From Alphaproteobacteria bacterium (GTDB lineage: Bacteria > Pseudomonadota > Alphaproteobacteria > GCA-2731375): a stretch of DNA of 64,000 nt. Made by a program: the position numbers and the translations under genes. Shown piece after piece: positions 5,636 through 21,098 of the stretch; position 1 is the stretch's first letter; the number at the start of each line of letters is the position of its first letter. The stretch lies in NCBI GenBank assembly GCA_965225945.1, contig CBDDBZ010000035.1, positions 288,001 through 352,000 on the forward strand, in the 5' to 3' direction. The notes beneath the pieces are model-generated. The model searched no databases, was not told the DNA's origin, and saw nothing but the letters and a program-made list of their open reading frames with translations.

Positions 5636-7687
5636 TCAGCCGCCGTCGACGGCGATGATCATGTTGCCGAATTCGTCGATAGCAGCGCTGGCGCCGGGGT
5701 CGACGAGGATGGTGGTGTCCGCCTGGACGACGATGGCGGGACCCTCGATTTCGTCGCCGGCCGCCAAACCGTCGCGCGCCAGGATCGGGGTCTCGACGAA
5801 GCCGTCCTCGAAATAGACCGGCCGAGTCGTGCCTGTGCCCGAGCCGCCGCCCGATTGGCCGCCCGCGCCGCCGCCGAGGCGGGCCAGGTCCAGCGCCGGG
5901 CGGCGGCCGAACACCGTGGTCCGGAGGTTGGCCAGGACCGGCACCATGTCCTCCAGCACGATCTCGAAGCGCTCCCGGTAGCGTTCCGCCAGACGCGCGG
6001 CGATTCGCTCGGGCGAAACGCCGGGGCCATCGATCACCATGCGAAAAACGTGGCTCTGGCCGCGGTAGAGCAGGTCCGCCTCGAACACCACCTCCACCGC
6101 TTCCGTCGCCACGCCCTCGGCGGCGATGGTCGCCCGCCCGCGCTCCGCCTGCTCGGCGAGGATGGCTTCGGCCTCGCCCGTGTCGACCTCGGCCAGCGGA
6201 CGCCAGAGGGTGGCGACATAGTCGTGGCGCAGGTCCGCCAGCACGCACCCCAAGGCCGAGGTGATGCCGGGAAAGCGCGGCACCAGCACCCTCGGGATGG
6301 CGAGCTCGCGGGCCAGCGCCACGGCATGCAGCGGCCCCGCGCCGCCGAAGGCGAAGAGGGCGAAGTCGCGCGGATCGTAGCCCTTCTCGATCGAGACCAG
6401 GCGGATCGCGGAGGCGAGCCGGTTGCCGGCGACGGCGAGGATGGCGGCGGCCGCGGCCACGGCGTCGAGGCCGAGGGGCGAGCCGACCTGGGCCAGCAGT
6501 GCCGCCTCGACCGCCCCCCCCGCCGCGCCGCCCTCGAGGCCGGCGAAGCCGGTCGGATCGACCCGCCCGAGAGCCAAGTTGGCGTCGGTCACCGTCACCC
6601 TATTCCCGCCCTTGGCGTAGCAGATCGGGCCCGGCTGGGCGCCCGCGCTCTCGGGCCCGACGCGGAGGATGCCGCCCTCGTCGACATGGGCGATCGAGCC
6701 GCCGCCGGCGCCGATGGTGTGGATGTCGACCATCGGCACCCTGACCGGCACGCCGTAGGCCAGGTCCTTCTCGGCCGAGATGGCGGGCTCGCCGCCCCGG
6801 ATCAGGCTGACGTCGAAGCTGGTGCCGCCCATGTCGCAGGCGATGAGGTCGGGGAAGCCGGATTGCGCGCCGATCCGGGCCGCCGCGATGGCGCCCGCGG
6901 CCGGGCCCGACATCACCGTCTGCACCGGCTGGCGGGCCGCCGCCGGCGCCGTCATGGTGCCGCCGTTGCCCTGCATCACCAGCAGCTCCCGGCCGTAGCC
7001 GGCAGCGTCCAGCCGTTCCGCGATACGGCCCAGATAGCGCGCCAGCACCGGCTGCACATAGGCGTTGACGGCGGCGGTGCTGCCGCGCTCGAACTCGCGA
7101 ACCTCGCTCAGAATCTCGCCGCTGGCGGTGACATAGTCGTTGGGCCAGACCTCGCGGGCGATGGCGTACGCGCGGCGCTCGTGCGCCGGGTTGGCGTAGG
7201 CGTGGAGGAAATGGATCACCACGGCCTCGGCGCCGAGCCGGATCAAGGTGCGAAGCGCGTCGCGCACCTCGTCCTCGTCGAGCGGCGTCACGATCCGGCC
7301 CTTGGCGTCCATCCGTTCCGCCACCTCGAGGCGGAGCTCGCGGTCGACCAAAGCCTCGAAGTGGCCGAACATGCCGTAATTGTTGGGCCGGGTGCGGCGG
7401 CCGAGTTCCAGGATGTCGCGGAAGCCCCGGGTGGTGATCAGGCCGACGCGGGCCCCCTTGCGCTCCAGCACCGAATTGGTGGCGATGGTGGTGCCGTGGA
7501 CGATCGCCGAAAGCTCGGGAAGTGCTGCCTGGGCGGCCTCCAGCGCGGCCATCACGCCCAACGATTGGTCCTCCGGCGTCGTCGCCACCTTGGCGACGCG
7601 GAAGCGGTCCGTCGTCGTATCGAGCACCACGAGATCGGTGTTGGTGCCGCCGACGTCGATTCCCGCCTGCCAATCGGTATCGCTCAC
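5636..7687 (-). CDS. Hydantoinase A/oxoprolinase family protein
   Basis: GIDVGGTNTD, HGTTIATN, SGPAAG, DMGGTSFD, GAGGGSIA; GTG start assumed. Confidence 0.9.
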   Translation of the reverse strand: MSDTDWQAGIDVGGTNTDLVVLDTTTDRFRVAKVATTPEDQSLGVMAALEAAQAALPELSAIVHGTTIATNSVLERKGARVGLITTRGFRDILELGRRTRPNNYGMFGHFEALVDRELRLEVAERMDAKGRIVTPLDEDEVRDALRTLIRLGAEAVVIHFLHAYANPAHERRAYAIAREVWPNDYVTASGEILSEVREFERGSTAAVNAYVQPVLARYLGRIAERLDAAGYGRELLVMQGNGGTMTAPAAARQPVQTVMSGPAAGAIAAARIGAQSGFPDLIACDMGGTSFDVSLIRGGEPAISAEKDLAYGVPVRVPMVDIHTIGAGGGSIAHVDEGGILRVGPESAGAQPGPICYAKGGNRVTVTDANLALGRVDPTGFAGLEGGAAGGAVEAALLAQVGSPLGLDAVAAAAAILAVAGNRLASAIRLVSIEKGYDPRDFALFAFGGAGPLHAVALARELAIPRVLVPRFPGITSALGCVLADLRHDYVATLWRPLAEVDTGEAEAILAEQAERGRATIAAEGVATEAVEVVFEADLLYRGQSHVFRMVIDGPGVSPERIAARLAERYRERFEIVLEDMVPVLANLRTTVFGRRPALDLARLGGGAGGQSGGGSGTGTTRPVYFEDGFVETPILARDGLAAGDEIEGPAIVVQADTTILVDPGASAAIDEFGNMIIAVDGG

Positions 7688-8115
7688 GCGTCTCTCCCGC
7701 TTCGTGGTGGGCGCATTCTGGCACCCGCGCGGCCCGCGCACCACCCGGCGGGCGCCGATGCCGAGGTGATCTTGGCCGACGTGAGTCGGGGCTCGGCGGT
7801 TTCCGCCGGCGGGCGGGTGGTAGCACCTCTCATGTCGGGAGCCGGGGGTGGAGTGGCCGTCGCCGGGCCCTGCCGGCCACGAGCGGGTGTCGCCAAATTT
7901 GACCGTTCAGGTTTCCCCAATATGTCGGCGGATCAGAGCAACTGAGCGACGATTCCAGCACCTCGAAGGCTTCGCTAGACTTCGACCCTGTCGGTGGGCA
8001 CGCGGAAATGTCCGGCGGCGATCGTCCCGGCGGACGTTGTCGATTGGCCAATGGCGACGATCTGGCAATCAGCACCACCCTGCGTTAATCTCATAGCGGT
8101 CAGGCGAGGGATGAC

Positions 8116-9906
8116 ATGGAGTTGCTCGCGCGCTTGGGACTCGAGCCCAACATATTCGACGGCCGCGTGGCCGTCGTCACGGGAGCGGCGCGCGGCATTG
8201 GTGAACAAGTGGCGCGTGGCCTGGCCAACCTCGGCGCCGACGTCGTCGTTCTCGATATTCTGCAGGAAGGCGAAGGGGTTGCCGCACAGATTCGGGGCAA
8301 TTCCCGCAACGCGACCTTCAAGCAGGTCGATCTCCGCGACATAGACGCTTTGGAACGCTTTCAAGACGAAGTCCTGTCCGAGCACGGCGCGGTCGACATC
8401 CTGGTAAACAACGCCTCCAAATTGCACTATGAGTATTTCCTAAACGCGCCCATCGATCTATGGGACGATCTGCACAATACCACGGTTCGTGCATCGACCT
8501 TTCTGATCCAGAAGTTTCTGCCGAAAATGCTCGAAAACCGCTTCGGCGTAATTTGCAACACCATCGCCGTCGATGTGTTGTCGCACGGCGCCCATTTCGC
8601 GGCCGCCATGGCGGGGCAAAAATCGATGGCCCTTTCGTTAGCCGGCGAAATTGGTAGCGAGAGCGGTGTCAGCGTATTCGGCTTCGCGCCAGGCGTTGTC
8701 GACACACCTCTGGTCCGCGACCTCGCGCCATTAGTGCCAAAATTCAGAGGCGTGACGCAGGAGGAATATATCAAGCATTTCGTGCAGAACCCGGGCTATG
8801 AAGGCTTGATGCCGGCGGAACACTGCGGTGCCAGTTACGTCTATTGCCTCGCGCATGCCAAAGCCTATCAAGGCCAGATCGCCGATGCTTTTCACCCCCT
8901 GATCAACCACGGAATCATTACGCCTGGGAATGACGAGGAGGAACTGCTCCGGGTCTCCGATAACGTCGATCCCTCGATCTGGCAAATTCACGACTACGTT
9001 CATGGCTTCTCGAACTTGAACCGAAATCTGGAGACGCGGATCGTCGAACGGACCAAGGAGCTGGAGGCGGCCAATCAAAAACTGGCTCAACAAAAACAGC
9101 ATATAGAGGATGTATCCACCAAGATATCCCGCTATTTGCCACGGCAGATCTATGAATCCATTTTTGCCGGAGAGATCGACACCGACATTGCGTCTCGGCG
9201 CCGAAACCTGACCATTTTCTTCTCCGACATCTGCGACTTTTCCCGCAAGACCGAACGGTTGGAGCCGGAGGCGTTGTCGGAGATTCTCAATAACTATTTC
9301 TCGGAGATGACCGAGATCGCTCGCGCCTACGGCGCGACCATCGACAAGTTCATTGGCGATGCGATTCTCATTTTTTTCGGCGACCCGAACACCGAGGGTC
9401 CAGTGAAAGATGGCGAAGCTTGCGTGGCCATGGCTATCGACATGCAACGCCGCATGGGCGCGTTACGGGACAGCTACGACCATCTTGGCTTGAACGAACC
9501 GCTGGAAATGCGCATTGGCATCAACAGCGGTTATTGCACGGTCGGAAACTTCGGTAGTTTCGAGCGCATCGACTACACAATCGTCGGCACCCCCGTGAAC
9601 ATCGCCTCGAGGCTGCAGGACGCCGGCGAGCCGGGTACGATCACAGTCTCTCGAAACACTCATGCGCTCGTCGCCGATCGGTTCGAGTTCGCTTCTCTGG
9701 GGCGTTTGCAGCTCAAGGGCATCGTGGACGAGGTCGATGCTTATCGAGTTCTGTTCGAGGCCGTGGAGGGCGCCGACGCGGCGACGACACCGGAGGGGCA
9801 GATGAGGGCATTGAAGGAGCGCCTCCGACGGCTCGACATCGACAAGCTTGGAGACGCGGAAAAGGATGAGTTGTTGAAATCCATGTCCAAGCTGCTCGGT
9901 CGTTGA
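8116..9906 (+). CDS. Fusion of SDR-fold domain, coiled coil and class III adenylate cyclase
   Basis: N-term TGAARGIG, DILVNNA, APGVVDTP; linker LETRIVERTKELE; cyclase FSDICDFS, DKFIGDA, MRIGINSG, DYTIVGTPVNIASRLQ. Confidence 0.85.
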   Translation: MELLARLGLEPNIFDGRVAVVTGAARGIGEQVARGLANLGADVVVLDILQEGEGVAAQIRGNSRNATFKQVDLRDIDALERFQDEVLSEHGAVDILVNNASKLHYEYFLNAPIDLWDDLHNTTVRASTFLIQKFLPKMLENRFGVICNTIAVDVLSHGAHFAAAMAGQKSMALSLAGEIGSESGVSVFGFAPGVVDTPLVRDLAPLVPKFRGVTQEEYIKHFVQNPGYEGLMPAEHCGASYVYCLAHAKAYQGQIADAFHPLINHGIITPGNDEEELLRVSDNVDPSIWQIHDYVHGFSNLNRNLETRIVERTKELEAANQKLAQQKQHIEDVSTKISRYLPRQIYESIFAGEIDTDIASRRRNLTIFFSDICDFSRKTERLEPEALSEILNNYFSEMTEIARAYGATIDKFIGDAILIFFGDPNTEGPVKDGEACVAMAIDMQRRMGALRDSYDHLGLNEPLEMRIGINSGYCTVGNFGSFERIDYTIVGTPVNIASRLQDAGEPGTITVSRNTHALVADRFEFASLGRLQLKGIVDEVDAYRVLFEAVEGADAATTPEGQMRALKERLRRLDIDKLGDAEKDELLKSMSKLLGR

Positions 9907-10312
9907 ACCCGCCGGGCCAAAGCTTGCCCGGAATACTCCCGCGCCAAGTGTCGCCTCGGTCGGGGATCGCCTGTCGGCCCCCTCTCGGGAAACGCCCGGA
10001 CCCGGAGGCGTTCTCGACCTCGATCGGGTGATTCCAGGTCTCGAACCGGCGGACGTTGGGCGTCGGTGGTGAACGCCCCGTCCCGCCGGGGCAGCCCTGG
10101 TCGATGCCGGTGTGGATGGTGGGGGGCGAGGGGTGCGCGAGGCGATAGGGTTGTGGGCTTCGAGCCGGCGCGCGCGCTCGTTTTGGCGAGCGACCGCGTT
10201 CATAATATGAACATCGAGGAGTTGCGCCATCGGCTTCGAGGCTGGAGAAGCCGGTGGCGGCGGGGGAATCGATGAAGCGCGGCGCCCTATCGTCGATTCG
10301 CGCGCCGCGTGA

Positions 10313-10432
10313 GAGGGTTTGGGGGCGGTGGACGCCTCGATCATGCCGGCGATTGTCGCCGGCAACACCAACGCGCCGGCGATCATGATCGGCGAGAAGG
10401 CGGCGGCGATGATCCTGGAGGACGCGGGGTAG
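10313..10432 (+). pseudogene. 3' fragment of a GMC (choline dehydrogenase-like) oxidoreductase
   Basis: Translates [39 protein letters not shown], the GMC C-terminal motif; rest of the gene absent. Confidence 0.8.
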
Positions 10433-10517
10433 GGGGTGGTGCTCCGCGCAATCTACAAGATAGCATAGGGCCGCGCGCCGCATCGGCTGCGCATCGCGAC
10501 GGGATCAGGGAGCATCG

Positions 10518-12506
10518 ATGCCCGACCACAGTGATTTTGCGAACCTGATCTGGCAGATCGCCGATCTGCTGCGCGGCCCATACCGACCGCCGCAGTACGA
10601 GCGCGTCATGTTGCCGATGACCGTGCTGCGTCGCTTCGACTGCGTGCTGGCACCCACCAAGGCGAAGGTGCTGGCCGAACACGAGCGACGGAGAGGCGGA
10701 CGGCTCAACGACGAAGCGCTCGACCAAATGCTGAATCGGAGGGCCGAACAGCGCTTCCACAACCACTCGCCGCTCGACTTCGAGAAGCTGAAGGGCGACC
10801 CCGACAACATCGCGCCGCATCTGGTCAGCTACATCAAGGGTTTCTCGGCCAACGTCCGCACCATCTTTGACTTCTTCGAGTTCGAGAACGAAATCGAGCG
10901 GATGCGCGAGTCGAATATTCTCTATCTCGTCGTCTCGAATTTCTGCGACGTGAATTTGCACCCGGATGAGGTGCCAAACGAGCAAATGGGACTGATCTTC
11001 GAGAACCTGATCCGCCGGTTCAACGAGCTAGCCAACGAGACCGCCGGCGACCATTTCACACCCCGCGAGGTGATCCGGCTGATGGTCAACTTGTTGTTCA
11101 TCCAAGATGACGAACTGCTGGCGACGCCGGGCGCCGTACGCAAGCTGCTGGACCCCGCGTGCGGCACTGGCGGCATGCTGGCCGAGGCGCAGAGCTATCT
11201 GCGTGATCACCATGCGGCGGCCCAGTTATACGTCTACGGCCAGGATTACAACAAGCGCGCCTACGCCACCGCAGCCTCCGACATGCTGATGAAGCAAGTA
11301 GACCACAACGGGGGCGACAACAACGTGCGCTTCGGCGACAGCTTCACGGACGACAAATTTGCGCCGGAGACCTTCGACTACCTGCTGACCAACCCGCCGT
11401 TCGGCGTCGATTGGAAACGGCAGCGAAAGGAACTCCGCAACGAGCACGAACGGCTCGGCTTCGCCGGCCGCTTCGGTGCCGGGTTGCCACGCATCAACGA
11501 CGGATCGCTGCTGTTCCTTCTGCACATGATCAGCAAGTTCGAGCCGGTGCTGCCCGATCAGCACAAGCACGGATCGCGGCTCGCCATCGTCTTCAGCGGC
11601 TCGCCGCTATTCACCGGCGGTCCCGGCTCCGGTGAGAGCGACATCCGCAAGTGGATCATCGAAAACGACTGGCTCGAAGCCATCGTCGCCCTGCCGGAGC
11701 AGATGTTCTATAATACCGGCATCGGCACCTATGTCTGGATTGTCGCCAACCGCAAGGAACGGAATCGCAAGGGTAACATTCAGCTCGTCGACGCGCGCGA
11801 ATGCTACGTGGCGATGCGCCGTAGCCTCGGCAACAAGCGCCGCAAGATCGGCGAGAAGGAGGACCAGTGCGACCAGATAGCCGAGATCGTGCGGACCTAT
11901 GGTGGCTTCGCGCACGGCGACACCTCGAAAATATTCGACAACGCCGCTTTCGGCTACACCCGCGTCACCGTCGAGCGCCCGCTACGCCTCTGCTATCGGA
12001 TGACGGTCGACGATAAAGCACGCTCCCTCGACGCCTGCCCGCACCTCCTCGACGACGTTCAGGCAATCGACGAAGCGCTAGGCCGCGAGCCGCAACACGA
12101 CTGGAACGCCCTCTGGACGGGCATCGCCAACTTGCTGCGTAAACGTGGATCGCGTTGGAAAGCGCCGGAGCAGAGCCTCTTCCGCAGTGTTTTCACGCAT
12201 AAGGACCCGGAGGCGGAACCCGTCGACAAAGGGGGCCGAGACGGAGGCTACGAGCCCGATCCCGACCTGCGCGACTTCGAGAATGTGCCACTCAAAGACG
12301 GCATCGAGGCCTATTTCGAGCGCGAGGTGCTGCCTCACGTGCCCGACGCCTGGATGGACCGCGGTAAGGACAAGGTCGGGTACGAGATCAACTTCAATCG
12401 TCACTTCTACAAGTACACGCCGCCGCGGCCATTGGAGAAGATTGACGCGGACCTGAAGCGGGCGGAGGAGACAATTATGCGACTCTTACGTGAGGTTACG
12501 GAGTGA
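10518..12506 (+). CDS. hsdM: Type I R-M methyltransferase subunit
   Basis: HFTPREV, DPACGTGGM, NPPF, MFYNTGIGTY, KVGYEINF. Confidence 0.95.
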   Translation: MPDHSDFANLIWQIADLLRGPYRPPQYERVMLPMTVLRRFDCVLAPTKAKVLAEHERRRGGRLNDEALDQMLNRRAEQRFHNHSPLDFEKLKGDPDNIAPHLVSYIKGFSANVRTIFDFFEFENEIERMRESNILYLVVSNFCDVNLHPDEVPNEQMGLIFENLIRRFNELANETAGDHFTPREVIRLMVNLLFIQDDELLATPGAVRKLLDPACGTGGMLAEAQSYLRDHHAAAQLYVYGQDYNKRAYATAASDMLMKQVDHNGGDNNVRFGDSFTDDKFAPETFDYLLTNPPFGVDWKRQRKELRNEHERLGFAGRFGAGLPRINDGSLLFLLHMISKFEPVLPDQHKHGSRLAIVFSGSPLFTGGPGSGESDIRKWIIENDWLEAIVALPEQMFYNTGIGTYVWIVANRKERNRKGNIQLVDARECYVAMRRSLGNKRRKIGEKEDQCDQIAEIVRTYGGFAHGDTSKIFDNAAFGYTRVTVERPLRLCYRMTVDDKARSLDACPHLLDDVQAIDEALGREPQHDWNALWTGIANLLRKRGSRWKAPEQSLFRSVFTHKDPEAEPVDKGGRDGGYEPDPDLRDFENVPLKDGIEAYFEREVLPHVPDAWMDRGKDKVGYEINFNRHFYKYTPPRPLEKIDADLKRAEETIMRLLREVTE

Positions 12507-13773
12507 ACGTGCTCAATAACGTTCAGCGACTTCGGCTCAAGTACGCCGCGACCATCAACGATGACGTACTGGGTGAAGAGACAGAGTCCGACTACGAGCT
12601 ACAGTATGTTGACATCGGCAACGTCGATTCCTCTGGCACAATCGATGAAATCGTAACGTATCGCTTCGCCGATGCACCCAGTCGAGCTCGGAGGCGAGTT
12701 CGTGATGGCGACGTCGTTGTTTCTTGCGTGCGAACCTACCTCCAAGCAATTGCACCGATTCAGACTCCCCCAAAAAACCTGATCGTATCAACCGGGTTCG
12801 CCGTAGTGCGTCCACGCGGTGACGTATTTGATGCTGGCTACTGTAAATATGCGTTGCGTGAACCCGCTTCCCTAGCGGAAGTGGAGATGCCCTCTGTCGG
12901 AGTCAGCTACCCAGCAATCAATGCTTCCGACCTCGCTGATATTGCGGTTTATTTGCCGCCGGTTCACCGCCAGTGTAGCATTGCCGACTTCCTCGACCGC
13001 GAGACGACTCTGCTGGATGCGCTAATGGCAGCGAAGGAACGACTACTTGAGATATTGGTTGAGAAGCGTCGGGCGCTCATCACACGCGCCCTTACCCGCG
13101 GCCTTGATCCCGACGTCCCTCTACGAGACTCCGGCAATCTCTCGCTCGGCGAAATTCCAAAGCATTGGAAAGCAACCCGGTTAAAGTTTTTCACCGAGGT
13201 TCGTGGCGGTTTGACTCTTGGTAAGAACTATAGCGCGGCAGAACTTGTTGAGTTTCCATACTTGCGTGTGGCCAATGTCCAGGACGGACACGTCGATCTC
13301 TCCGATGTCGCAACCGTTATGATCCCGCAATCGGAAGCAGATTCATGTTTATTGGCCGTCGGAGATGTTCTGATGAACGAAGGTGGAGACGCTGACAAGT
13401 TGCGCCGTGGCTGCATTTGGTACGGTAAAATTACCCCGTGTCTTCACCAGAATCACGTTTTCACGGTTCGTCCAAGGCACGTTCGATTCGATTGGCTGAA
13501 CGCATGGATTTTCACGAACGTTCCGAAGGTTTTTTTCAATCCCGAGCAAAACAATCGACGAATTTAGCATCGATTTCAGCGACCAACCTCAAAGAACTAC
13601 CGATACTACTCCCTACTGAAAATGAGCAACCCGCGATCCTCCAGCACATCGATGCGGAAACGACGAAGCTCGACACGTTGTACACTACAACAGAACGTGC
13701 CCTGGCACTGCTCAAGGAACGCCGCTTCGCCATCATCGCTGCGGCTGTTACTGGGCAGTTGGAGATTACGTGA
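12503..13773 (+). pseudogene. hsdS: Type I R-M specificity subunit, frameshifted at a T7 run (13530-13536)
   Basis: PSRARR, VSTGFAV, YLRVANVQDG, IIAAAVTG; split across ORFs 12503-13567 and 13438-13773. Confidence 0.85.
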
Positions 13774-13777
13774 CGCA

Positions 13778-15266
13778 ATGAGAATCCGTGAAACTCACTC
13801 TTCGCAACTATCGGGTCCATGCTGATCCCCAACCCTTTCAGTTCGCGGACCGCTTCACTGTCGTCGCCGGCGTCAACGGAACCGGCTGTGGCGGCTGTTC
13901 ACCGTCTGCACATGCAGATCGCCCCGAACCCGTTCCCCCATCGAAGGCTCACCCCGAGCGCGGCGGCGCACGGTGGGTAGCTCGCGCCGCCGTCGGAGAC
14001 CAAACCACCGGGTCGAGGGCAGCTGAGCGCCGCCGCATCGACCCTGGGCAGCACCGCGCTGACATGAGAACCGGTACCTGCTCGCGCACGTGCCTTGCGC
14101 CCCAGCCCGCGCGCGCCCTTGCTCTCCAGGACGTAGTCTCGTCCGCTTTCCCCAAAAGTGTCGCCGGCGCGCAGCGGCTATCGTTCAATAAAGACCTCGG
14201 ACGTGAATTTTGGCGCAACGTTCGCCGAGTTAGGCATGAAACCCTTGCCGTAAATTGCGCCGGGATTCCGCTTGAATATAAGCTGATCTACGATCCGGAG
14301 CGCCACCGGGTCTCGCCGACCAAACTACCAGCTGCGGTCATGCGCGAGGTAAGGAACGCTTACGGCGACCCTACCCGCGCCGACGACGCGGCGGCGCTGG
14401 CGGTCTATTATACGACGGATCGAGCGGGGTACCGACTTCCCAAGAAGCTACCGGTGGAGGTGCCGCACGGGCAGGCCGCCGCCTATACGGGCGCGCTCTT
14501 AAATCGCACCGTTAATTTTCGCGACTTTATGGCGCGATACCGAAGCGCGATTGTACTCGAACGTGAGACGCTCCGAGACAACCCGAGCTATCTCGGGGGC
14601 CACGCCGTCGAAGCAATATCGAGAGCCCTCACCACATTTCTCGGCGGATTCGAGAATCTACGTATTGAGGAAGAGCCGCTTCGCCTCTTGGTCGACAAAG
14701 CAGGAGTACCGCTAGATCTCTCTCAATTGTCAGAAGGGAAGCGCTCGTTTCTGGCGCTGGTGTGCGACTTGGGGCGGCGGCTGGCACTCGCAAATCCAAT
14801 GCTCGACAATCCGCTGCACGGCGCCGGCGTAGTTCTGATCGATGAACTGGAGTTGCACCTACATCCCGAGTGGCAACGCGAGGCCCGCGAGAAACTCCAC
14901 GAGGCATTCCCCAACATCCAGTTCATTGCGACCACTCACTCACCGTTCGTAATTCAGTCCCTACGACCGGGTGAGCTGATCAACCTCGACCCGGACGAAT
15001 TTAGCGAGTACGCAGACAAGAGCATCGAGGATATCGCCGAGAACGTGATGGGTGTGGATTTGCCACAAAAGAGCGAACGTTACCTCCAGATGATGAATGC
15101 GGCTGAGGCGTATTTTCGTCTGCTTCGAGAACCAGGCGCATTGACCGAAACCGCGGAGCAACGACTGAATGAGCTTGCGGCGCCGTTCAGCGACGACCCA
15201 GCGTTCCAGGCACTACTAAAACTTGAGCGCGAAGCACGGCGCGGAGGCGGCGATGGGACCCGTTGA
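13778..15266 (+). pseudogene. ABC/AAA ATPase (Septu PtuA-like) with disrupted N-terminus
   Basis: GVNGTG Walker A broken by foreign sequence; LSQLSEG, VLIDELELHLHP, QFIATTHSP; probable frameshift just after ATG 13778. Confidence 0.75.
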
Positions 15267-15936
15267 CAAAGGGGCGGCACCTCGTGTGTACGCAAATTAC
15301 CAAGATGCTGGGTCGGACCTTCAAAAACGGCTCGGCGACTACTGCAGCTATTGCGAGTGGCAGATCGAGACCTACCTCGCCGTCGAGCACATCCAGCCAA
15401 AGTCACACATGCTCCTCCTGGGCACGAGTTGGTCGAACTTTCTCTTGGCATGCGTCAACTACAATTCGAACAAAGGCAGCACCCCGGTCAACTTGTCGGA
15501 CTACTTCTGGCCCGACGTAGACAATACTCTACGCGCGTTCGAGCACGTCCCCGGTGGCTTGATTCGGCCACATCCGACCTTGGAGCCTCACTTGACGGCG
15601 AAGGCTCATGCAACAATCAGTTTGGTTGGGCTCGATCGTGATCCGGGCAATCCAGGAAGAGACCCCACGTTGCGCGACAATCGCTGGTATCGGCGACTTC
15701 GGGCCTGGCAGGTGGCCCAAAGATGTCGGAACAATGTCGCTGCGCAAGACACGGCTGAGATGCGTGACACTGTTGTGATGGTAGCGACCGGTCGTGGCAT
15801 TTTCTCGATTTGGTGCACCGTGTTTGCCGGCGACGCCGACATGCGCCGACGATTGCGGGAGGCGTTTGTAGGTACTCACGGAGGATCATTCGATGCGAAC
15901 GAAGACCTTGTACCCCGCGATGGGGGACAGGTGTAG
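15253..15936 (+). CDS. HNH endonuclease (PtuB-like)
   Basis: YCSYCE, VEHIQPK, WSNFLLACVNYN; overlaps the ATPase stop. Confidence 0.8.
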   Translation: MGPVDKGAAPRVYANYQDAGSDLQKRLGDYCSYCEWQIETYLAVEHIQPKSHMLLLGTSWSNFLLACVNYNSNKGSTPVNLSDYFWPDVDNTLRAFEHVPGGLIRPHPTLEPHLTAKAHATISLVGLDRDPGNPGRDPTLRDNRWYRRLRAWQVAQRCRNNVAAQDTAEMRDTVVMVATGRGIFSIWCTVFAGDADMRRRLREAFVGTHGGSFDANEDLVPRDGGQV

Positions 15937-15938
15937 CT

Positions 15939-18900
15939 ATGAGCGCGCCTAGACGCAACGAAGCGGCCTTCGAGACCGTTATCGAAGCGTACCTGTTACA
16001 AAACGGGTACGTGCCTGTCGCCCGCGAAGTTTTCGACCGCGAACGCGCGATCTTTCCGGAGACGGTACTCGCCTTCATCCGCGAGACCCAGCCCAGGGAG
16101 TGGGCCAAGCTGGAGGCCCTGCACGGTGACGGGACCGGCGCGCAGATACTGACGGATCTCTGCAAGTGGATGGACGCAAACGGCTCGCTCACCACGCTCC
16201 GCCACGGCTTCAAGTGCTATGGCCGCACGCTTCACTTGGGATTCTTCAAGGCGGCGCACGAGCTGAACCCCGATCTGGAGGCGCGCTACGCCGCGAACCG
16301 CTTGGGGATTACCCGACAATTGCGCTTCTCGCCGCGCTCTCGAAAGTCGCTCGACGTTGCGTTGAGCCTGAACGGTATCCCGATCGCCACTCTGGAGCTG
16401 AAGAACCAGCTCACGGGCCAGACGATCGAGGACGCGCGCCGACAATACAAGCAGGACCGCGACCCGCGTGAGCCGATCTTCGAGTTCAAGCGACGGTCGC
16501 TCGTGCATTTCGCTGTCGACACCGACGCGGTGCTAATGACGACGCGGCTGGCCGGCCCGGCGACCCACTTCCTGCCGTTCAACAAGGGCCATGACGGTGG
16601 TGCGGGCAACCCGCCCGACCCGGAGGGGCGCGGCTATCGCACGGCCTATCTCTGGGAGGACGTCTTGGAGCGCGACAGTTTGCTGGAGCTGCTTGCGCGC
16701 TTCATTCACTTGCAGACCGAGGAAAGGCGCGACGACCAGGGCCGCAAGGTGAAGAAGGAAAGCATGATCCTCCCGCGTTACCACCAGCTGGTGGCCGTGG
16801 GCACACTGGTGGACTCGGCGCGGCGTGAGGGTGTTGGGCACAACTACCTAATCGAGCACTCCGCGGGCAGTGGCAAAAGCAACACCATCGGTTGGATGAC
16901 TCATCGGCTGGCATCGCTGCACGACGCTGCGAACCAACGGGTGTTCGACAGCGTGATCGTGACCACCGACCGCGTCGTGCTGGACCAGCAATTGCAGGAC
17001 ACGATCTATCAGTTCGAGCACAAGCGCGGCGTGGTCCAGCGGATCGACGAAAGCTCGCGACAATTGGCGGAGGCGCTGGAAAGCGCGGTGCCGGTGATCG
17101 TCACCACCCTGCAGAAGTTTCCGTTCGTCTCGAAGCATCTGGCCAAGATGGCCGAGGAGCGCGGCGCGGGCGGCGACGGCACCTTGCCGACACGCCGGTG
17201 CGCGGTGGTCATTGATGAGGCGCACAGCTCACAAGGCGGCGAGACGGCCACGGACCTGAAGGAGGTCCTCGGAGGGAAGGGGCTGAGGGAGGAGGCCGTG
17301 CGTTACGCGGTGGAAGAAGATCTCGAAGACATGGAGGAGCTGTTCCGCAGCATGGCTAAGCGCGGCCGGCAAGCGAACCTGAGTTTCTTCGCGTTCACCG
17401 CAACGCCGAAACACAAGACACTTGCCGTATTCGGCCGCGATGGAGAGCCCGTGCATCGGTACACGATGCGTCAAGCCATCGAGGAAGAGTTCATCCACGA
17501 CGTCCTCAAGCACTACACGACCTTCGAAACGTATTTTCGATTGCTCAAGGCGTGCGAAGACGATCCCAACGTAGAACGAAAGAAAGGCGCGAAAGCGCTG
17601 GCGCGCTTCATGAAGTTGAACCCACATAATATCGCCCAAAAGACCGAGGTGATAGTAGAGCATTTCAACACGATGACGCGTCACAAGATCGGCGGTCGTG
17701 CGAAAGCGATGGTCGTGACCGGTTCGCGCCTTGAAGCAGTGCGCTACAAGCAGAGCATCGACCAGTACATCCGGCGAAAGGGATATCCGATCAAGACGCT
17801 TGTGGCCTTCTCCGGCATCGTGCAGGACGACAAGCTCGCCGGCGTGGCCTACACCGAAGAAGGCATGAACCAAGGCATCCGAGAGAAGGAGCTGCCGGAG
17901 AAGTTCGCCACCCCGGAGTATCAGGTACTGCTCGTGGCCGAGAAGTACCAGACCGGCTTCGACCAGCCGCTCTTGCACACGATGTACGTGGACAAACGGC
18001 TCGCCGGCATCCAGGCGGTGCAAACTCTGTCGCGGTTGAATCGCACCCACCCACTCAAGGAAGACACCTTCGTCCTCGACTTCGTGAACGACCGCGAGGA
18101 TATCCGCGACGCCTTCAAGACCTATTACGAAGGCGCCGAGATGGGTGACGAGGTCGACCCGGCGCGCATGTATCAAGTCAAGGGCGAGCTGGACGCGTCG
18201 GGCATTTACCTCGCAGAGGAGGTGGAGCGGTTCTGCTCGATCTATTTCAAGCCCAAGCAGCGGCAGAGCCCGGCCGACCACCAGGCGATGAACGCGATGC
18301 TCGATCCAGGGGTCGCCCGTTTCGCCAAGTTCCAGATCGAGGAAGAGGAGGAGGCGGAGCTATGGCGCGGCAAAGCGCGGGCTTTTCATAACCTTTATGG
18401 CTTCCTGAGCCAGGTGATCCCGTATCAGGACTCGGACCTGGAGAGACTTTACGTGTTCCTCCGCTATCTAGCCGCGAAACTGCCCAAACGGCGCGATGGC
18501 CCCGCCTACCAGTTCGATGACGAGGTTAGGCTCGAATACTACCGCTTGCAAAAGATCAGCGAAGGTTCGATCGGCCTCGGCGACGGCCGGGCTCGACCGC
18601 TCGACGGCCCGACCGAGGTAGGTTCTGGCCTAGCGCGTGAGCAACCGGTTCCCTTGTCACAGCTAATCGACCTGGTGAACGAGCGTTTCGGCACGGACTT
18701 CAATCAGGCAGATCAACTTTTCTTCGATCAGATCGTCGAAGCGGCAATGGCGGACGACGGTCTGCGGCAGGCGGCATCCGTAAATCCGGGCGACAAGTTC
18801 GAGCTTGTCTTCAAAAACCTGCTTCAGACACTATTCGTCGAGCGGATCGATCAGAACGAGGAAATATTCATCCGTTTCATGAACGATTCGTCGTTTCGTG

Positions 18901-18980
18901 AACTGGTTACATCCTGGCTAGCATCCGAGGCGTATCGCAAGCTACGCGAGGACCAACGTCAGGATGAACCGGTAGATTGA
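15939..18980 (+). CDS. hsdR: Type I R-M restriction subunit
   Basis: LELKN, HSAGSGKS, DEAH, FTATPK, TGFDQP, QTLSRLNR. Confidence 0.95.
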   Translation: MSAPRRNEAAFETVIEAYLLQNGYVPVAREVFDRERAIFPETVLAFIRETQPREWAKLEALHGDGTGAQILTDLCKWMDANGSLTTLRHGFKCYGRTLHLGFFKAAHELNPDLEARYAANRLGITRQLRFSPRSRKSLDVALSLNGIPIATLELKNQLTGQTIEDARRQYKQDRDPREPIFEFKRRSLVHFAVDTDAVLMTTRLAGPATHFLPFNKGHDGGAGNPPDPEGRGYRTAYLWEDVLERDSLLELLARFIHLQTEERRDDQGRKVKKESMILPRYHQLVAVGTLVDSARREGVGHNYLIEHSAGSGKSNTIGWMTHRLASLHDAANQRVFDSVIVTTDRVVLDQQLQDTIYQFEHKRGVVQRIDESSRQLAEALESAVPVIVTTLQKFPFVSKHLAKMAEERGAGGDGTLPTRRCAVVIDEAHSSQGGETATDLKEVLGGKGLREEAVRYAVEEDLEDMEELFRSMAKRGRQANLSFFAFTATPKHKTLAVFGRDGEPVHRYTMRQAIEEEFIHDVLKHYTTFETYFRLLKACEDDPNVERKKGAKALARFMKLNPHNIAQKTEVIVEHFNTMTRHKIGGRAKAMVVTGSRLEAVRYKQSIDQYIRRKGYPIKTLVAFSGIVQDDKLAGVAYTEEGMNQGIREKELPEKFATPEYQVLLVAEKYQTGFDQPLLHTMYVDKRLAGIQAVQTLSRLNRTHPLKEDTFVLDFVNDREDIRDAFKTYYEGAEMGDEVDPARMYQVKGELDASGIYLAEEVERFCSIYFKPKQRQSPADHQAMNAMLDPGVARFAKFQIEEEEEAELWRGKARAFHNLYGFLSQVIPYQDSDLERLYVFLRYLAAKLPKRRDGPAYQFDDEVRLEYYRLQKISEGSIGLGDGRARPLDGPTEVGSGLAREQPVPLSQLIDLVNERFGTDFNQADQLFFDQIVEAAMADDGLRQAASVNPGDKFELVFKNLLQTLFVERIDQNEEIFIRFMNDSSFRELVTSWLASEAYRKLREDQRQDEPVD

Positions 18981-19122
18981 GTAATCGCAACAGACGCCAT
19001 AAAGCGCAATATGTGGGATGGAATGTGGGGTATTGCGCCTTGGAAGGAGCATGAAGTTTGGTGGCCGTTGGACCCACCGCCACGCCGCACATCCCATCGC
19101 CCCAAACCAAGGGAGCCCCCCC

Positions 19123-19320
19123 ATGACCGACCGCTACACAAAAACCGTGCTGACCGTGATCGCCGCCGCGCTGGTGTGGCTCGCCGCCGGCCTCCCCGCC
19201 GCCGGCGCCTCGGGCGCGCAAGACGTCGTCGTCACCGAGATTACCTATAGCGCCGCCTCCACCCTCAGTAGCGTCGCCCACACCCTCGCGCGCAAAATCA
19301 ACGACGGGCGCTGCCGATAG
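19123..19320 (+). CDS. Small hypothetical membrane/secreted protein
   Basis: GGAG upstream; hydrophobic N-terminus MTDRYTKTVLTVIAAALVWLAAG. Confidence 0.55.
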   Translation: MTDRYTKTVLTVIAAALVWLAAGLPAAGASGAQDVVVTEITYSAASTLSSVAHTLARKINDGRCR

Positions 19321-19403
19321 GACCCCGCCCGGCCTCGCGCGCCCCGCGCAAATCGCGCCCGCCCTCGACGTCACCGCGATCAGCCATGCCGCTCCGCTCC
19401 GCC

Positions 19404-19616
19404 CGGTGATCACCGTGTTCATATATTGAACATGGGAGTTGCGCGCGGGCGCGCCGTGGGGGGGATCGAGGACGAGACGCTCGGGGGGGAGAGCGACCCC
19501 GGCACCCGAGCTTCGCGGCCCGCTCCCGAGCGAGACGCCCGAGCCCGCGTCCAACCGCCACGGCCTCGCGAATCCGCGCCGCTCGGTGATCACCGTGTTC
19601 AAATTTTGAACATGGG
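19404..19616. repeat. Two 33-bp direct repeats 180 bp apart with a palindromic GTTCA-N5-TGAAC core
   Basis: CGGTGATCACCGTGTTCA(tata/aatt)TTGAACATGGG at 19404 and 19584; related copy at ~10193. Confidence 0.75.
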
Positions 19617-19689
19617 CATCAGGCGCGAGAACCGCCCGCCGCGCGCCGCGAGAAACACGCCGCGGGGGGAGTGATTTTGTAACGGCTCG

Positions 19690-20912: not shown

Positions 20913-21098
20913 AACGGCTCGATCAAAAGCCTTCATTTTCGGGCGATTTTGAGCGATTTTGAGGCCATAATGAGGCAACATGAGTACCCCTTTTCGCCGC
21001 CGCCCGGATCGCCGCGCTTCGCTCCGCTCGCTCGCGATGACGATTTCGGCGACGATCGGCCCCGTGAGCCGGCGTCGAATTCGGGAAGGAACACCCCC

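What the first reader, a model, noticed from the sequence alone, without database searches (positions are those of the whole stretch)
8116..9906. Catalytically dead SDR domain fused to an intact adenylate cyclase: candidate NAD(H)/redox-sensing cAMP system
Seen: a 596-aa ORF with no obvious TM helix. The SDR half keeps the cofactor-binding parts (TGAARGIG, Asp after beta2 in VVVLD, VDILVNNA, APGVVDTP). The catalytic YxxxK reads FAAAM and the usual NxSS reads NTIA, whereas the two ordinary SDRs in this window keep YASAK and YCASK. A coiled coil leads to a class III cyclase with both metal Asp (FSD, IGD), the ATP-specifying Lys (DKF) and NxxxR. Known: SDRs need Tyr/Lys for catalysis, an acidic residue at beta2 favours NAD(H), and NmrA/HSCARG are non-catalytic SDR-fold dinucleotide sensors. 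Inference: a pseudo-enzyme sensor coupling NAD+/NADH or a ligand to cAMP synthesis. I do not know this architecture as characterised.
Basis: partly seen in the sequence, partly recalled or inferred. Interest (0 to 1): 0.8.

Follow-up and report, generated by a model that had tools for sequence, protein, structure and literature searches.

The report
Dead-dehydrogenase sensor fused to adenylate cyclase
This gene encodes a soluble enzyme that makes the messenger cAMP and is probably controlled by a dehydrogenase-like domain that has lost its chemistry but kept its NAD pocket; related domains sit in front of many other bacterial signalling enzymes and look like an undescribed sensor family.

Summary
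ORF 8116..9906 (+) encodes 596 aa: adh_short (17-203), a 53-residue helix with the S-helix "ERT" signature, and a class III cyclase (361-543).

The cyclase keeps both metal Asp, K411/T488 and N495/R499. Its closest solved relative is P. aeruginosa adenylate cyclase CyaB (E 5.8e-59).

In the SDR half all four catalytic residues are replaced (N/S/Y/K to T123/A151/F161/M165). The cofactor motifs are invariant. All 28 aligned homologues at 49% identity or more have lost them. The SDR half is about as conserved as the cyclase (61% vs 66%).

New here: the closest relatives of this SDR module among 1.84 billion representatives are mostly N-terminal modules of other signalling proteins. Of 80 scanned, 26 are histidine kinases, 4 PP2C, 4 GGDEF, 2 cyclases and 1 Ser/Thr kinase. 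They share a family signature and often lack the catalytic Tyr.

Best reading: a cytoplasmic, dimeric, one-component adenylate cyclase gated by a non-catalytic, dinucleotide-binding SDR-type sensor. The ligand is inferred, not shown. No description was found in six literature searches. Both genomic copies lie in mobile islands, and the gene is rare.

The parts
8116..9906 (+). Whole gene: 596-aa SDR-like sensor / S-helix / class IIIb adenylate cyclase / C-terminal helical tail (stop codon 9904-9906)
   Evidence: ORF list; Pfam; 66 of 120 listed clusters share both domains; AlphaFold model, mean pLDDT 83
8116..8925 (+). SDR-fold module, residues 1-270 (Rossmann core plus lid)
   Evidence: adh_short 17-203, E 7e-33; pLDDT mostly 85-97; Foldseek TM 0.83-0.87 to NAD-bound SDRs such as 6qhe and 6zzs; mean pairwise identity 61% in group A
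8179..8256 (+). Dinucleotide-binding elements: TGAARGIG (residues 22-29) and the acidic residue after beta2 (D47)
   Evidence: T22, G23, G27, G29 and D47 are invariant in all 40 aligned homologues. The rule 'acidic residue after beta2 = NAD(H); basic residue in the Gly motif = NADP(H)' comes from passages of PMC2792337. R26 is also present.
8482..8610 (+). Degenerate active site: T123 (Asn position), A151 (Ser), F161 (Tyr), M165 (Lys); the Ser-to-Tyr loop is 3 residues shorter than in classical SDRs
   Evidence: HMMER alignment to FabG 3ftp/1q7c; counts in A1: first 28 sequences T26/V1/A1, A23/G5, F28, M26/L2; shorter loop in the whole module family
8788..8814 (+). Family signature NPGYEGLMP (residues 225-233) in the lid region; the signature continues with HC.A...HG...PL..G(I/V)I to about residue 268
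   Evidence: P226, G227, Y228, L231 and P233 are invariant in A1. The signature is shared by HK-, GGDEF-, PP2C-, STK- and cyclase-fused and stand-alone relatives and is absent from the 3 classical SDRs shown.
8926..8970 (+). Variable hinge, residues 271-285
   Evidence: pLDDT below 50 at 274-281; mean identity 27% over 271-295 in group A
8971..9129 (+). Signalling (S-)helix, residues 286-338, with NLETRIVERTKEL; ERT signature at 311-313 (nt 9046-9054)
   Evidence: A single helix 286-338 in the model. Among the 28 group A sequences: E311 26/28, R312 25/28 (plus 3 K), T313 28/28. ERT signature and S-helix contexts from passages of PMC1592074. Residues 285-290 touch in the predicted dimer.
9130..9192 (+). 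Pre-catalytic segment ISRYLPRQIYESIFAGE..., residues 339-359 (resembles the cyclase-transducer element; that name is recalled, not tested)
   Evidence: L341 and P342 nearly invariant, G352 invariant; helix 343-350; 63% mean identity over 296-359
9193..9753 (+). Class III cyclase catalytic domain, residues 360-546: metal D371 and D415, substrate K411 and T488, transition-state N495 and R499
   Evidence: Pfam; all six residues identical in the 28 group A sequences; P. aeruginosa CyaB 3r5g E 5.8e-59 by sequence and TM 0.94, rmsd 1.2 A, 48% identity by structure
9754..9903 (+). C-terminal two-helix tail, residues 547-596 (..LKERLRRLDIDKLGDAEKDELLKSMSKLLGR); function unknown
   Evidence: Helices 559-572 and 580-595. 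Present in group A and absent in group B. Also matched in cyclases with other N-termini in related genomes, with query coverage to 591-595. 37% mean identity.

Best explanation
The gene encodes a cytoplasmic, homodimeric, one-component signalling enzyme. Its N-terminal SDR-fold module can no longer carry out hydride-transfer catalysis, because all four tetrad residues are replaced by T/A/F/M. It still binds a nicotinamide dinucleotide, most likely NAD(H). The module dimerises through the classical SDR alphaE/alphaF four-helix interface. Helix alphaF carries the former Tyr/Lys positions and lines the nicotinamide pocket, so occupancy or redox state of the dinucleotide (or a ligand bound beside it) would change the interface. 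That change would pass through the parallel S-helix (ERT signature) and the pre-catalytic segment to a CyaB-type class IIIb catalytic dimer, setting the rate of cAMP synthesis from ATP. Shown here: the domain anatomy, the conserved loss of the tetrad, the conserved cofactor motifs, purifying selection on the module, the kinship of the cyclase to a proven adenylate cyclase, and the use of related modules as N-terminal domains of many signalling outputs. Inferred: dinucleotide binding, the identity of the signal, the direction of regulation, and the allosteric path.
For: (1) Anatomy: Pfam adh_short plus Guanylate_cyc. The AlphaFold model (pLDDT 83) shows the SDR module at 1-270, one helix at 286-338 and the cyclase at 360-546.
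(2) Dead active site: alignment to FabG. In the 40-sequence alignment, all 28 sequences at 49% identity or more have F at the Tyr position, M/L at Lys, T/V/A at Asn and A/G at Ser. The paralogue in the same genome has L and M.
(3) Cofactor pocket under selection: T22, G23, G27, G29, D47, D72, N98, N99, A100, P192, G193 and T197 are invariant in all 40. Identity within group A is 61% for the SDR half against 66% for the cyclase, while the hinge is 27% and the tail 37%.
(4) Cyclase competent for ATP: D371, K411, D415, T488, N495 and R499 are present in 28/28. The best solved relative is P. aeruginosa adenylate cyclase CyaB (E 5.8e-59; TM 0.94), which has the same DYTI(I/V)G wording.
(5) Sensor role by architecture: with residues 1-296 as query, 76 cluster representatives score E<=1e-30. 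Of 80 top hits scanned with Pfam, 38 carry a signalling output C-terminal to the module: 26 HK-type, 4 SpoIIE/PP2C, 4 GGDEF, 2 cyclase, 1 Pkinase and 1 PAS only. All share the short Ser-Tyr loop and the NPGYxGLMP signature. The outputs seen here (HK, cNMP cyclase, PP2C, GGDEF) are among those the S-helix paper lists downstream of sensory domains (PMC1592074 passages).
(6) Repeated loss of catalysis in signalling fusions: the Tyr is lost in 19 of 25 HK-type modules (16 M) with Lys kept in 25/25. By contrast, 33 of 40 non-signalling relatives keep N-S-Y-K. A tree built without the four tetrad columns places the signalling fusions in one 57-row set (support 91), nested among intact-tetrad relatives.
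(7) Dimer: a prediction of residues 1-345 x2 with NAD scored ipSAE 0.84 (median of 3 runs) against a best control of 0.00. This mark was reached by 20 of 30 proteins solved as pairs of one chain and 1 of 23 solved as single chains. The runs agree in at least 64% of contacts, and the partner pLDDT is at least 85. The interface is residues 107-136, 153-180 and 285-290. SDR dimers of this kind are solved many times, so the pass may be from memory and shows likeness only.
(8) The genome holds at least 6 cNMP-binding-domain genes that could read the signal.
Against: No binding or activity datum exists. The NAD riding along was not scored. Lys165, which in SDRs helps hold the nicotinamide ribose (established SDR knowledge, recalled), is lost in group A. 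The HK-fused relatives keep it, so cofactor affinity here may be weakened or the binding mode altered. R26 in the Gly motif is a feature associated with NADP(H) (PMC2792337 passage) and sits beside the NAD-type D47. The lid signature NPGYxGLMP is shared with intact-tetrad, enzyme-like relatives. This fits a common metabolite ligand as well as it fits dinucleotide sensing. The coiled-coil contacts beyond residue 290 were not confidently predicted. No conserved neighbouring gene points to a pathway. The tree is a 'quick' search, and the 57-row node is unstarred.
Confidence: 0.5

Rival explanations
1. Metabolite sensor. The module holds NAD(H) as a fixed co-ligand and senses a small molecule, the substrate or product of its enzyme-like ancestors, in the former substrate pocket under the NPGYEGLMP lid. 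cAMP then reports that metabolite rather than redox state.
For: The lid signature is conserved from intact-tetrad, enzyme-like relatives (33 of 40 N-S-Y-K) through all signalling fusions. GGDEF (4/4) and most PP2C fusions keep a full tetrad and could bind or even turn over a substrate. The polar catalytic residues are replaced by hydrophobic ones (T/A/F/M), which keeps a pocket rather than collapsing it.
Against: No substrate can be named. NCBIfam gives only sub-threshold hits to many SDR families, and all source names are generic. No conserved metabolic neighbours were seen. The strongest invariants are the cofactor contacts.
Confidence: 0.3
2. Constitutive scaffold. The dead SDR module serves only as a stable dimerisation platform that holds the cyclase dimer together. 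Activity is set by expression, or by bicarbonate/CO2 as reported for class IIIb cyclases (recalled).
For: A confident alphaE/alphaF dimer prediction (score 0.84 vs 0.00, with the caveats). Class III cyclases need dimerisation. The catalytic residues are lost. Both copies lie in mobile islands.
Against: A mere scaffold would not need invariant Gly-motif, D47, D72, NNA and PG..T residues across 40 sequences. Nor would it need an S-helix with the ERT signature, which the S-helix paper links to switching rather than plain dimerisation (PMC1592074 passages). The same module recurs before five kinds of regulated outputs.
Confidence: 0.1
3. Defence cyclase. This would be a Pycsar-type (PycC) pyrimidine cyclase belonging to the neighbouring restriction-modification island.
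For: PADLOC PycC profile PDLC00734 scores E 1.3e-27 over residues 313-520. The gene lies at the edge of a low-GC island with a type I R-M system and an AAA_21 ATPase. Distribution is patchy.
Against: PycC profiles are class III homologues, so cross-hits are expected. The match to the proven adenylate cyclase CyaB is far stronger (E 5.8e-59), with the same Lys/Thr pair. No + strand ORF of 80 aa or more lies between 9906 and the hsdM start at 10518, so no cNMP-binding effector gene follows, and the two - strand ORFs there have no Pfam match. The paralogue is flanked by transposases, not defence genes.
Confidence: 0.04
4. Still an enzyme. The SDR half catalyses a reaction with non-canonical residues, so the protein is a bifunctional metabolic/signalling enzyme.
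For: Some SDR-fold proteins use other active-site configurations (PMC2792337 passages). The distant group B keeps Asn, Tyr and Lys.
Against: All four tetrad positions are non-polar or non-ionisable in 28/28 group A sequences. No alternative conserved acid/base is evident in the pocket region of the alignment. The HK clade lost Tyr independently.
Confidence: 0.04

Closest known systems
P. aeruginosa CyaB (PDB 3r5g) and other class IIIb adenylate cyclases (Spirulina CyaC, 1wc0)
   Same: The catalytic domain is closely related: E 5.8e-59 by sequence and 48% identity, TM 0.94 by structure. It has the same metal Asp, Lys/Thr substrate pair and Asn/Arg, and a homodimeric class III fold.
   Different: The closest cyclase relatives listed carry HAMP, PF11845, PAS or MASE2 (PF05230) N-termini, not an SDR module. 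CyaB's own N-terminus being MASE2 is recalled. This protein also has an extra 50-residue helical tail.
NmrA / NMRAL1 (HSCARG), CC3/TIP30, MAT2B: SDR-fold proteins acting as non-enzymatic NAD(P)(H) sensors
   Same: [quoted passage not shown]
   Different: Those are stand-alone proteins with near-untraceable sequence similarity to SDRs, and they act through protein-protein contacts. This module is a clear classical-type adh_short member (E 7e-33) that is covalently wired through an S-helix to an enzymatic output.
S-helix-coupled sensor-output proteins (PAS/GAF/HNOB sensor, then S-helix, then HK, cyclase, PP2C or GGDEF)
   Same: The same grammar: N-terminal sensory domain, parallel coiled coil with ERT signature, dimeric catalytic output (PMC1592074 passages).
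   Different: The sensory domain is SDR-like. That paper does not mention dehydrogenase, Rossmann or SDR (0 occurrences each).
Classical SDR enzymes (FabG, 3-hydroxybutyrate dehydrogenase)
   Same: Fold, Gly motif, NNA and PG..T motifs, and the predicted alphaE/alphaF dimer interface.
   Different: The tetrad is lost, the Ser-Tyr loop is 3 residues shorter, and there is a distinct lid signature. All NCBIfam hits are far below their curated cut-offs (for example 104 bits against 303).

Membership tests
SDR superfamily, classical type (Pfam adh_short PF00106) | Rossmann fold with N-terminal TGxxxGxG motif | tested here: met
   TGAARGIG at 22-29; Pfam score 114 bits against a cut-off of 26.6; Foldseek TM 0.83-0.87 to SDRs
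SDR superfamily, classical type (Pfam adh_short PF00106) | NNAG and PG motifs that frame the cofactor | tested here: met
   NNAS at 98-101 and PGVVDT at 192-197; N98, N99, A100, P192, G193 and T197 are invariant in 40/40
SDR enzymes (catalytically active) | Asn-Ser-Tyr-Lys catalytic tetrad (YxxxK) | tested here: not met
   T123, A151, F161 and M165 by alignment to FabG; the tetrad is lost in 28/28 close homologues
NAD(H)-preferring SDRs | Acidic residue directly after beta2, no basic residue in the Gly motif or after beta2 | tested here: inconclusive
   D47 is invariant, but R26 lies in the Gly motif; the rule comes from a PMC2792337 passage. Binding itself is not testable here.
Class III nucleotidyl cyclases (Pfam PF00211) | Two metal-binding Asp and the transition-state Asn and Arg | tested here: met
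   D371, D415, N495 and R499 in 40/40; Pfam score 92.5 bits against a cut-off of 21.9
Class IIIb adenylate cyclases (CyaB/CyaC type) | Substrate-defining Lys plus Thr in place of Asp (class definition recalled from Linder & Schultz 2003, not read here) | tested here: met
   K411 and T488 in 28/28; the same DYTI(I/V)G wording in CyaB 3r5g
Class IIIb adenylate cyclases (CyaB/CyaC type) | Makes cAMP from ATP | not testable with these tools
   Needs an enzyme assay or cya complementation
S-helix signalling linker | A helix of about 40 residues between a sensory and a catalytic domain, with a central ERT signature | tested here: met
   Helix 286-338; E311-R312-T313, with T313 in 40/40; definition from PMC1592074 passages
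Pycsar cyclase PycC | Adjacent effector gene with a cNMP-binding domain; pyrimidine specificity | tested here: not met
   No + strand ORF of 80 aa or more between 9906 and 10518; the next gene is hsdM; purine-type Lys/Thr pair as in CyaB. Specificity itself was not assayed.
NmrA-like non-catalytic SDR-fold sensors | Sequence membership in the NmrA family | tested here: not met
   No NmrA family among the Pfam hits at E<=0.1. It works like them but is not a member.

The most novel reading that the evidence does not exclude
The SDR-like module defines an unrecognised, widespread family of cytoplasmic dinucleotide-binding sensor domains. They would be derived from an enzyme-like SDR clade and would have lost catalysis repeatedly. 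Through the S-helix they would wire the cell's NAD(H) or NADP(H) state directly to every main bacterial signalling output: histidine kinases, c-di-GMP and cAMP synthesis, PP2C phosphatases and Ser/Thr kinases. This gene would be the most degenerate member, with all four catalytic residues lost.
Probability: 0.35. Interest if true: 0.85.

Novelty: new variant of a known kind. Interest (0 to 1): 0.66.

Why it matters
How bacteria couple the redox or dinucleotide state of the cytoplasm to second messengers and two-component signalling is known only for a few sensors, such as Rex and PAS-flavin or haem domains (recalled).

Here a clearly classical SDR domain, one of the commonest enzyme folds, appears to have been recruited as an input domain. 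It has a traceable path from intact-tetrad relatives to partly and then fully dead versions. It is combined with at least five output types.

If binding is confirmed, this adds a new input-domain family to bacterial signal transduction. It also gives a clean natural series for studying how an enzyme becomes a sensor. The S-helix coupling suggests portability, so it could offer a compact NAD(H)-responsive cyclase for use as a tool.

It also matters for annotation. Where these proteins carry a name at all, it is a generic one: 'SDR family NAD(P)-dependent oxidoreductase', 'adenylate cyclase', 'diguanylate cyclase (GGDEF)-like protein' or 'serine/threonine-protein kinase'.

Tried and rejected
(1) The search for related loci in genome contigs with the whole protein. 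96 of 168 matched stretches encoded relatives and 80 loci were kept, but all matched only the cyclase half (query residues from about 221-336 onward; mostly Psychrobacter and Alcanivoracaceae).

(2) Conserved gene context. The window copy is flanked by hydantoinase A/B (divergent) and hsdM. The paralogue is flanked by Mutator-family transposases. Nothing is shared, so no operon partner can be proposed.

(3) Distribution. A full-length match was found in 1 of 40 related genomes (G019, 73%). At E<=1e-90 none was found in 400 other genomes sampled across the class. These are 'not found in those searched', not proof of absence.

(4) Promoter and terminator scan of 7700-10600. There were 0 promoter-like sites (shuffles 0.7) and 1 terminator-like site inside the gene on the minus strand (shuffles 2.6), so it was uninformative. 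Rfam at E<=0.1 gave 0 matches in 7600-10600. No tRNA in 1-40000.

(5) The Pycsar/defence reading was rejected (see rivals).

(6) An artefactual fusion of two genes was rejected.

(7) Literature. Six full-text searches and term look-ups in four signalling or domain papers found no description of an SDR domain as input of a cyclase, kinase or GGDEF protein. The papers were PMC2853384, PMC9756655, PMC2447327 and PMC1183210. Subscription-only papers are outside that library.

(8) The search of earlier findings by words returned nothing.

(9) I first assigned the second substrate-defining position to T492. Counting back from N495 against the recalled mammalian C2 wording corrected it to T488, which is T in 28/28 of group A and D in 11 of the 12 others.

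(10) I did not use sequencing reads (look-up of sequencing runs, read laying), so expression is untested.
Full report
OBSERVATION

The window holds an ATG-started ORF at 8116..9906 on the + strand, 596 aa. Pfam finds adh_short at residues 17-203 (E 7e-33) and Guanylate_cyc at 361-543 (E 3.1e-26).

There is no transmembrane segment. The best 19-residue hydropathy mean is 1.19.

An AlphaFold2 model built on 40 homologues has mean pLDDT 83. It shows:
- an SDR fold at 1-270;
- a poorly defined hinge, with pLDDT below 50 at 274-281;
- one uninterrupted helix at 286-338;
- a short helix at 343-350;
- the cyclase fold at 360-546;
- two terminal helices at 559-595.

THE TWO HALVES

HMMER alignments to FabG structures place F161 on the catalytic Tyr, M165 on the Lys and A151 on the Ser. 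So the entire Asn-Ser-Tyr-Lys tetrad is gone.

The cyclase half is a close relative of the catalytic domain of P. aeruginosa adenylate cyclase CyaB:
- sequence E 5.8e-59;
- Foldseek TM 0.94, rmsd 1.2 A, 48% identity.

It carries the metal Asp D371 and D415, the substrate pair K411/T488 (the same DYTI(I/V)G wording as CyaB), and N495/R499. The link between a Lys/Thr pair and class IIIb adenylate cyclases is recalled from Linder and Schultz, not read here.

The PADLOC PycC hit (E 1.3e-27) is what a class III domain is expected to give. No effector gene follows.

HOMOLOGUES

Of the 120 best clusters returned for the whole protein, 66 carry both PF00106 and PF00211. I aligned 40 full-length ones.

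The 28 sequences at 49-80% identity to the query (about 592-602 aa, here called group A) all have:
- F at the Tyr position;
- M (26) or L (2) at Lys;
- T/V/A at Asn;
- A/G at Ser.

The 12 at 34-43% identity are P0061 plus an approximately 535-aa group B. They keep Asn, Tyr and Lys but have Ala for the Ser. All but P0061 have a Lys/Asp-type cyclase.

Across all 40, the cofactor-contact residues are invariant: T22, G23, G27, G29, D47, D72, N98, N99, A100, P192, G193 and T197.

Mean pairwise identity within group A:
- SDR module: 61%
- S-helix region: 63%
- cyclase: 66%
- hinge: 27%
- tail: 37%

So the dead module is under purifying selection about as strong as that on the catalytic domain.

Between groups A and B, the SDR modules are more alike (40%) than the cyclase domains (29%). 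This points to module shuffling.

A 59%-identical full-length paralogue lies on another contig of the same genome. It has L and M at the Tyr and Lys positions.

THE WIDER FAMILY (THE MAIN NEW RESULT)

I searched residues 1-296 alone against 1.84 billion cluster representatives. This gave 76 hits at E<=1e-30. Almost all of the best ones are much longer than an SDR, with the match at their N-terminus.

I scanned 80 of the 90 proteins P0122-P0211 with Pfam. I left out ten of 161-270 aa as short or fragmentary. The result:
- 26 histidine-kinase types (HisKA/HisKA_2 plus HATPase_c, often with REC or PAS);
- 4 SpoIIE/PP2C phosphatases;
- 4 GGDEF cyclases;
- 2 nucleotide cyclases;
- 1 Ser/Thr protein kinase;
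- 1 PAS-only;
- 42 with no second Pfam domain.

Among the 40 best of these, 30 have a signalling output.

All these modules share two features that the classical SDRs I included lack:
- a Ser-to-Tyr loop three residues shorter (8 classical SDRs compared);
- the signature NPGYxGLMP...HC.A...HG...PL..G(I/V)I (3 classical SDRs shown).

Tetrad states in 77 aligned modules (three N-terminally truncated ones left out):
- HK-type: Tyr lost in 19 of 25 (16 Met), Lys kept in 25 of 25.
- GGDEF: 4 of 4 N-S-Y-K.
- PP2C: 3 of 4 N-S-Y-K.
- Ser/Thr kinase: N-A-F-K.
- Proteins without a signalling domain: 33 of 40 N-S-Y-K.

I built a maximum-likelihood tree without the four tetrad columns, using a quick search and rooting on 8 classical SDRs:
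- The family separates from classical SDRs (100*).
- The intact-tetrad proteins form a basal grade.
- All signalling fusions fall in one 57-row set (support 91, not starred).
- Group A is a clade (99*).
- The Met-type kinases are a clade (96*).
- Group B clusters with a PP2C and the Ser/Thr kinase (98*).
- The cyclase P0061 pairs with a HisKA_2 kinase (100*).

So cyclase outputs were joined to this module at least three times, or outputs were swapped. The Tyr was lost independently in group A and in the kinase clade.

LINKER

Directly after the module, group A reads N-x-N-L-E-x-R-I-x-E-R-T-x-E-L. In the 28 group A sequences E311 is present in 26, R312 in 25 (plus 3 K) and T313 in all 28.

The S-helix paper describes this kind of element: a parallel coiled coil of about 40 residues with an 'ERT' signature. 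It sits between N-terminal sensory domains and histidine kinases, cNMP cyclases, PP2C phosphatases and diguanylate cyclases. Mutations of its R or T leave the output unable to switch off (PMC1592074, passages read).

The same wording follows the module in kinase (P0125, P0129, P0176), GGDEF (P0152, P0160) and PP2C (P0140) fusions.

That paper has no occurrence of dehydrogenase, Rossmann or SDR.

DIMER

I predicted residues 1-345 in two copies with NAD riding along:
- ipSAE 0.84 (median of three runs) against 0.00 for the best of three controls.
- This mark was reached by 20 of 30 proteins solved as pairs of one chain and by 1 of 23 solved as single chains.
- The runs agree in at least 64% of contacts, and the partner pLDDT is at least 85.
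- The interface is residues 107-136 (helix alphaE), 153-180 (the short loop and helix alphaF, which bears positions 161 and 165) and 285-290 (the start of the S-helix).

SDR dimers of this type are solved many times, so the pass may be from memory and shows likeness, not binding. Contacts along the rest of the helix were not confident. The ligand was not scored.

HOW IT MOST LIKELY WORKS

Shown:
- a soluble protein with a dead but conserved SDR module, an S-helix and a competent CyaB-type adenylate cyclase;
- a module family used as the N-terminal domain of many signalling outputs.

Inferred:
- The module still binds a nicotinamide dinucleotide.
- NAD(H) is favoured by the invariant Asp after beta2 (rule from PMC2792337, passage read).
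- R26 in the Gly motif keeps NADP(H) open.
- Because helix alphaF lines the nicotinamide pocket and also forms the dimer interface next to the S-helix start, occupancy or redox state of the cofactor (or a ligand beside it) could re-set the coiled coil and hence the catalytic dimer.

I put about 0.5 on dinucleotide sensing and 0.3 on a metabolite ligand with the dinucleotide as co-ligand. The lid signature shared with enzyme-like relatives speaks for the metabolite reading. I put 0.1 on a constitutive scaffold, and a few per cent each on a defence cyclase or a still-active enzyme.

The genome has 63 Guanylate_cyc matches (62 over the cut-off) and at least 6 cNMP-binding genes. This protein is therefore one input among many in a large cAMP network.

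CONTEXT AND DISTRIBUTION

G+C falls from about 0.70 to 0.58 at about 8000 and recovers at about 21000. That island holds:
- this gene;
- a type I R-M system: hsdM 10518-12506, hsdS 12503-13567, an AAA_21 ATPase 13788-15266 and hsdR 15810-18980;
- a DDE transposase at 19707-20828.

The paralogue is flanked by Mutator-family transposase genes.

A full-length relative was found in 1 of 40 related genomes. At E<=1e-90 none was found in 400 other genomes sampled across the class. Most homologues come from metagenomes. The gene therefore looks mobile and rare, with no conserved partner.

COMPARISON WITH WHAT IS KNOWN, AND NOVELTY

It works like two known things:
- S-helix-coupled sensor cyclases;
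- SDR-fold non-enzymatic dinucleotide sensors: NmrA, NMRAL1, TIP30 and MAT2B (PMC2792337, passages).

It is a sequence member of adh_short and of class III (CyaB-type) cyclases. It is not an SDR enzyme, not an NmrA-family member and not a Pycsar system.

Six full-text searches and look-ups in four surveys found no description of an SDR input domain. Database names, where any are given, are generic. The library lacks most subscription journals, so prior description cannot be excluded.

I rate it a new variant of a known kind: a new input-domain family within the familiar sensor, S-helix, output grammar.

Noticed in passing
window 8000-21000: A low-GC island (0.55-0.65 against about 0.67-0.74 in the flanks) holds this gene, a type I R-M system (hsdM 10518-12506, hsdS 12503-13567, hsdR 15810-18980) interrupted by an AAA_21/AbiEii-like ATPase gene (13788-15266), and a DDE transposase (19707-20828, minus strand).
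   Followed up: partly
window 32745-33463 (G000:C35:320745-321463): A second class III cyclase, related to this one (46% identity to residues 300-465), lies in another low-GC patch (29-35 kb, down to 0.48). Its Guanylate_cyc match is split over two frames: profile positions 5-93 in a 467-aa frame and 115-179 in a 119-aa frame. It is possibly frameshifted.
   Followed up: no
L089 7714-9519 (-) = G000:C31:78722-80518: A full-length paralogue (59% identity) with Leu/Met at the Tyr/Lys positions and TGAASGVG is flanked on both sides by Mutator-family transposase genes (one truncated) and a Mu-type transposase.
   Followed up: partly
whole genome G000: There are 63 matches to the Guanylate_cyc profile (62 over the Pfam cut-off) in a 6.27-Mb genome, but only 6 cNMP-binding-domain matches at E<=1e-5. 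This is a very large cyclase repertoire relative to the recognisable receptors.
   Followed up: no
proteins P0131, P0132, P0150, P0153, P0157, P0161, P0169, P0175, P0179, P0186, P0190 (relatives, not in the window): These are intact-tetrad relatives of 406-486 aa. They carry a C-terminal helical tail of roughly 130-170 residues with no Pfam match and a shared motif around (L/F).(R/K).(M/W/L/F)(A/V).(R/K)..F...(T/A/S)G. Other ~400-445-aa relatives without a second Pfam domain were not read. This may be an undescribed domain and a clue to the ancestral enzyme.
   Followed up: no
protein P0128 (relative, not in the window): The same SDR-like module and an S-helix-like linker are followed by a Cys-rich tail (..LPICSECK....CPIC..) instead of a catalytic output. 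This looks like yet another output type.
   Followed up: no
window 9754-9903 (residues 547-596): The conserved two-helix C-terminal tail also accompanies CyaB-like cyclases with other N-termini in related genomes (matches reaching query residues 591-595, for example G022:C150, G003:C68 and G004:C1). It belongs to the cyclase cassette, and its role is unknown.
   Followed up: partly
window 9907-10517: A 611-bp gap between the cyclase gene and hsdM has no + strand ORF of 80 aa or more. It has only long antisense ORFs without Pfam matches, no Rfam match and no terminator-like site.
   Followed up: partly
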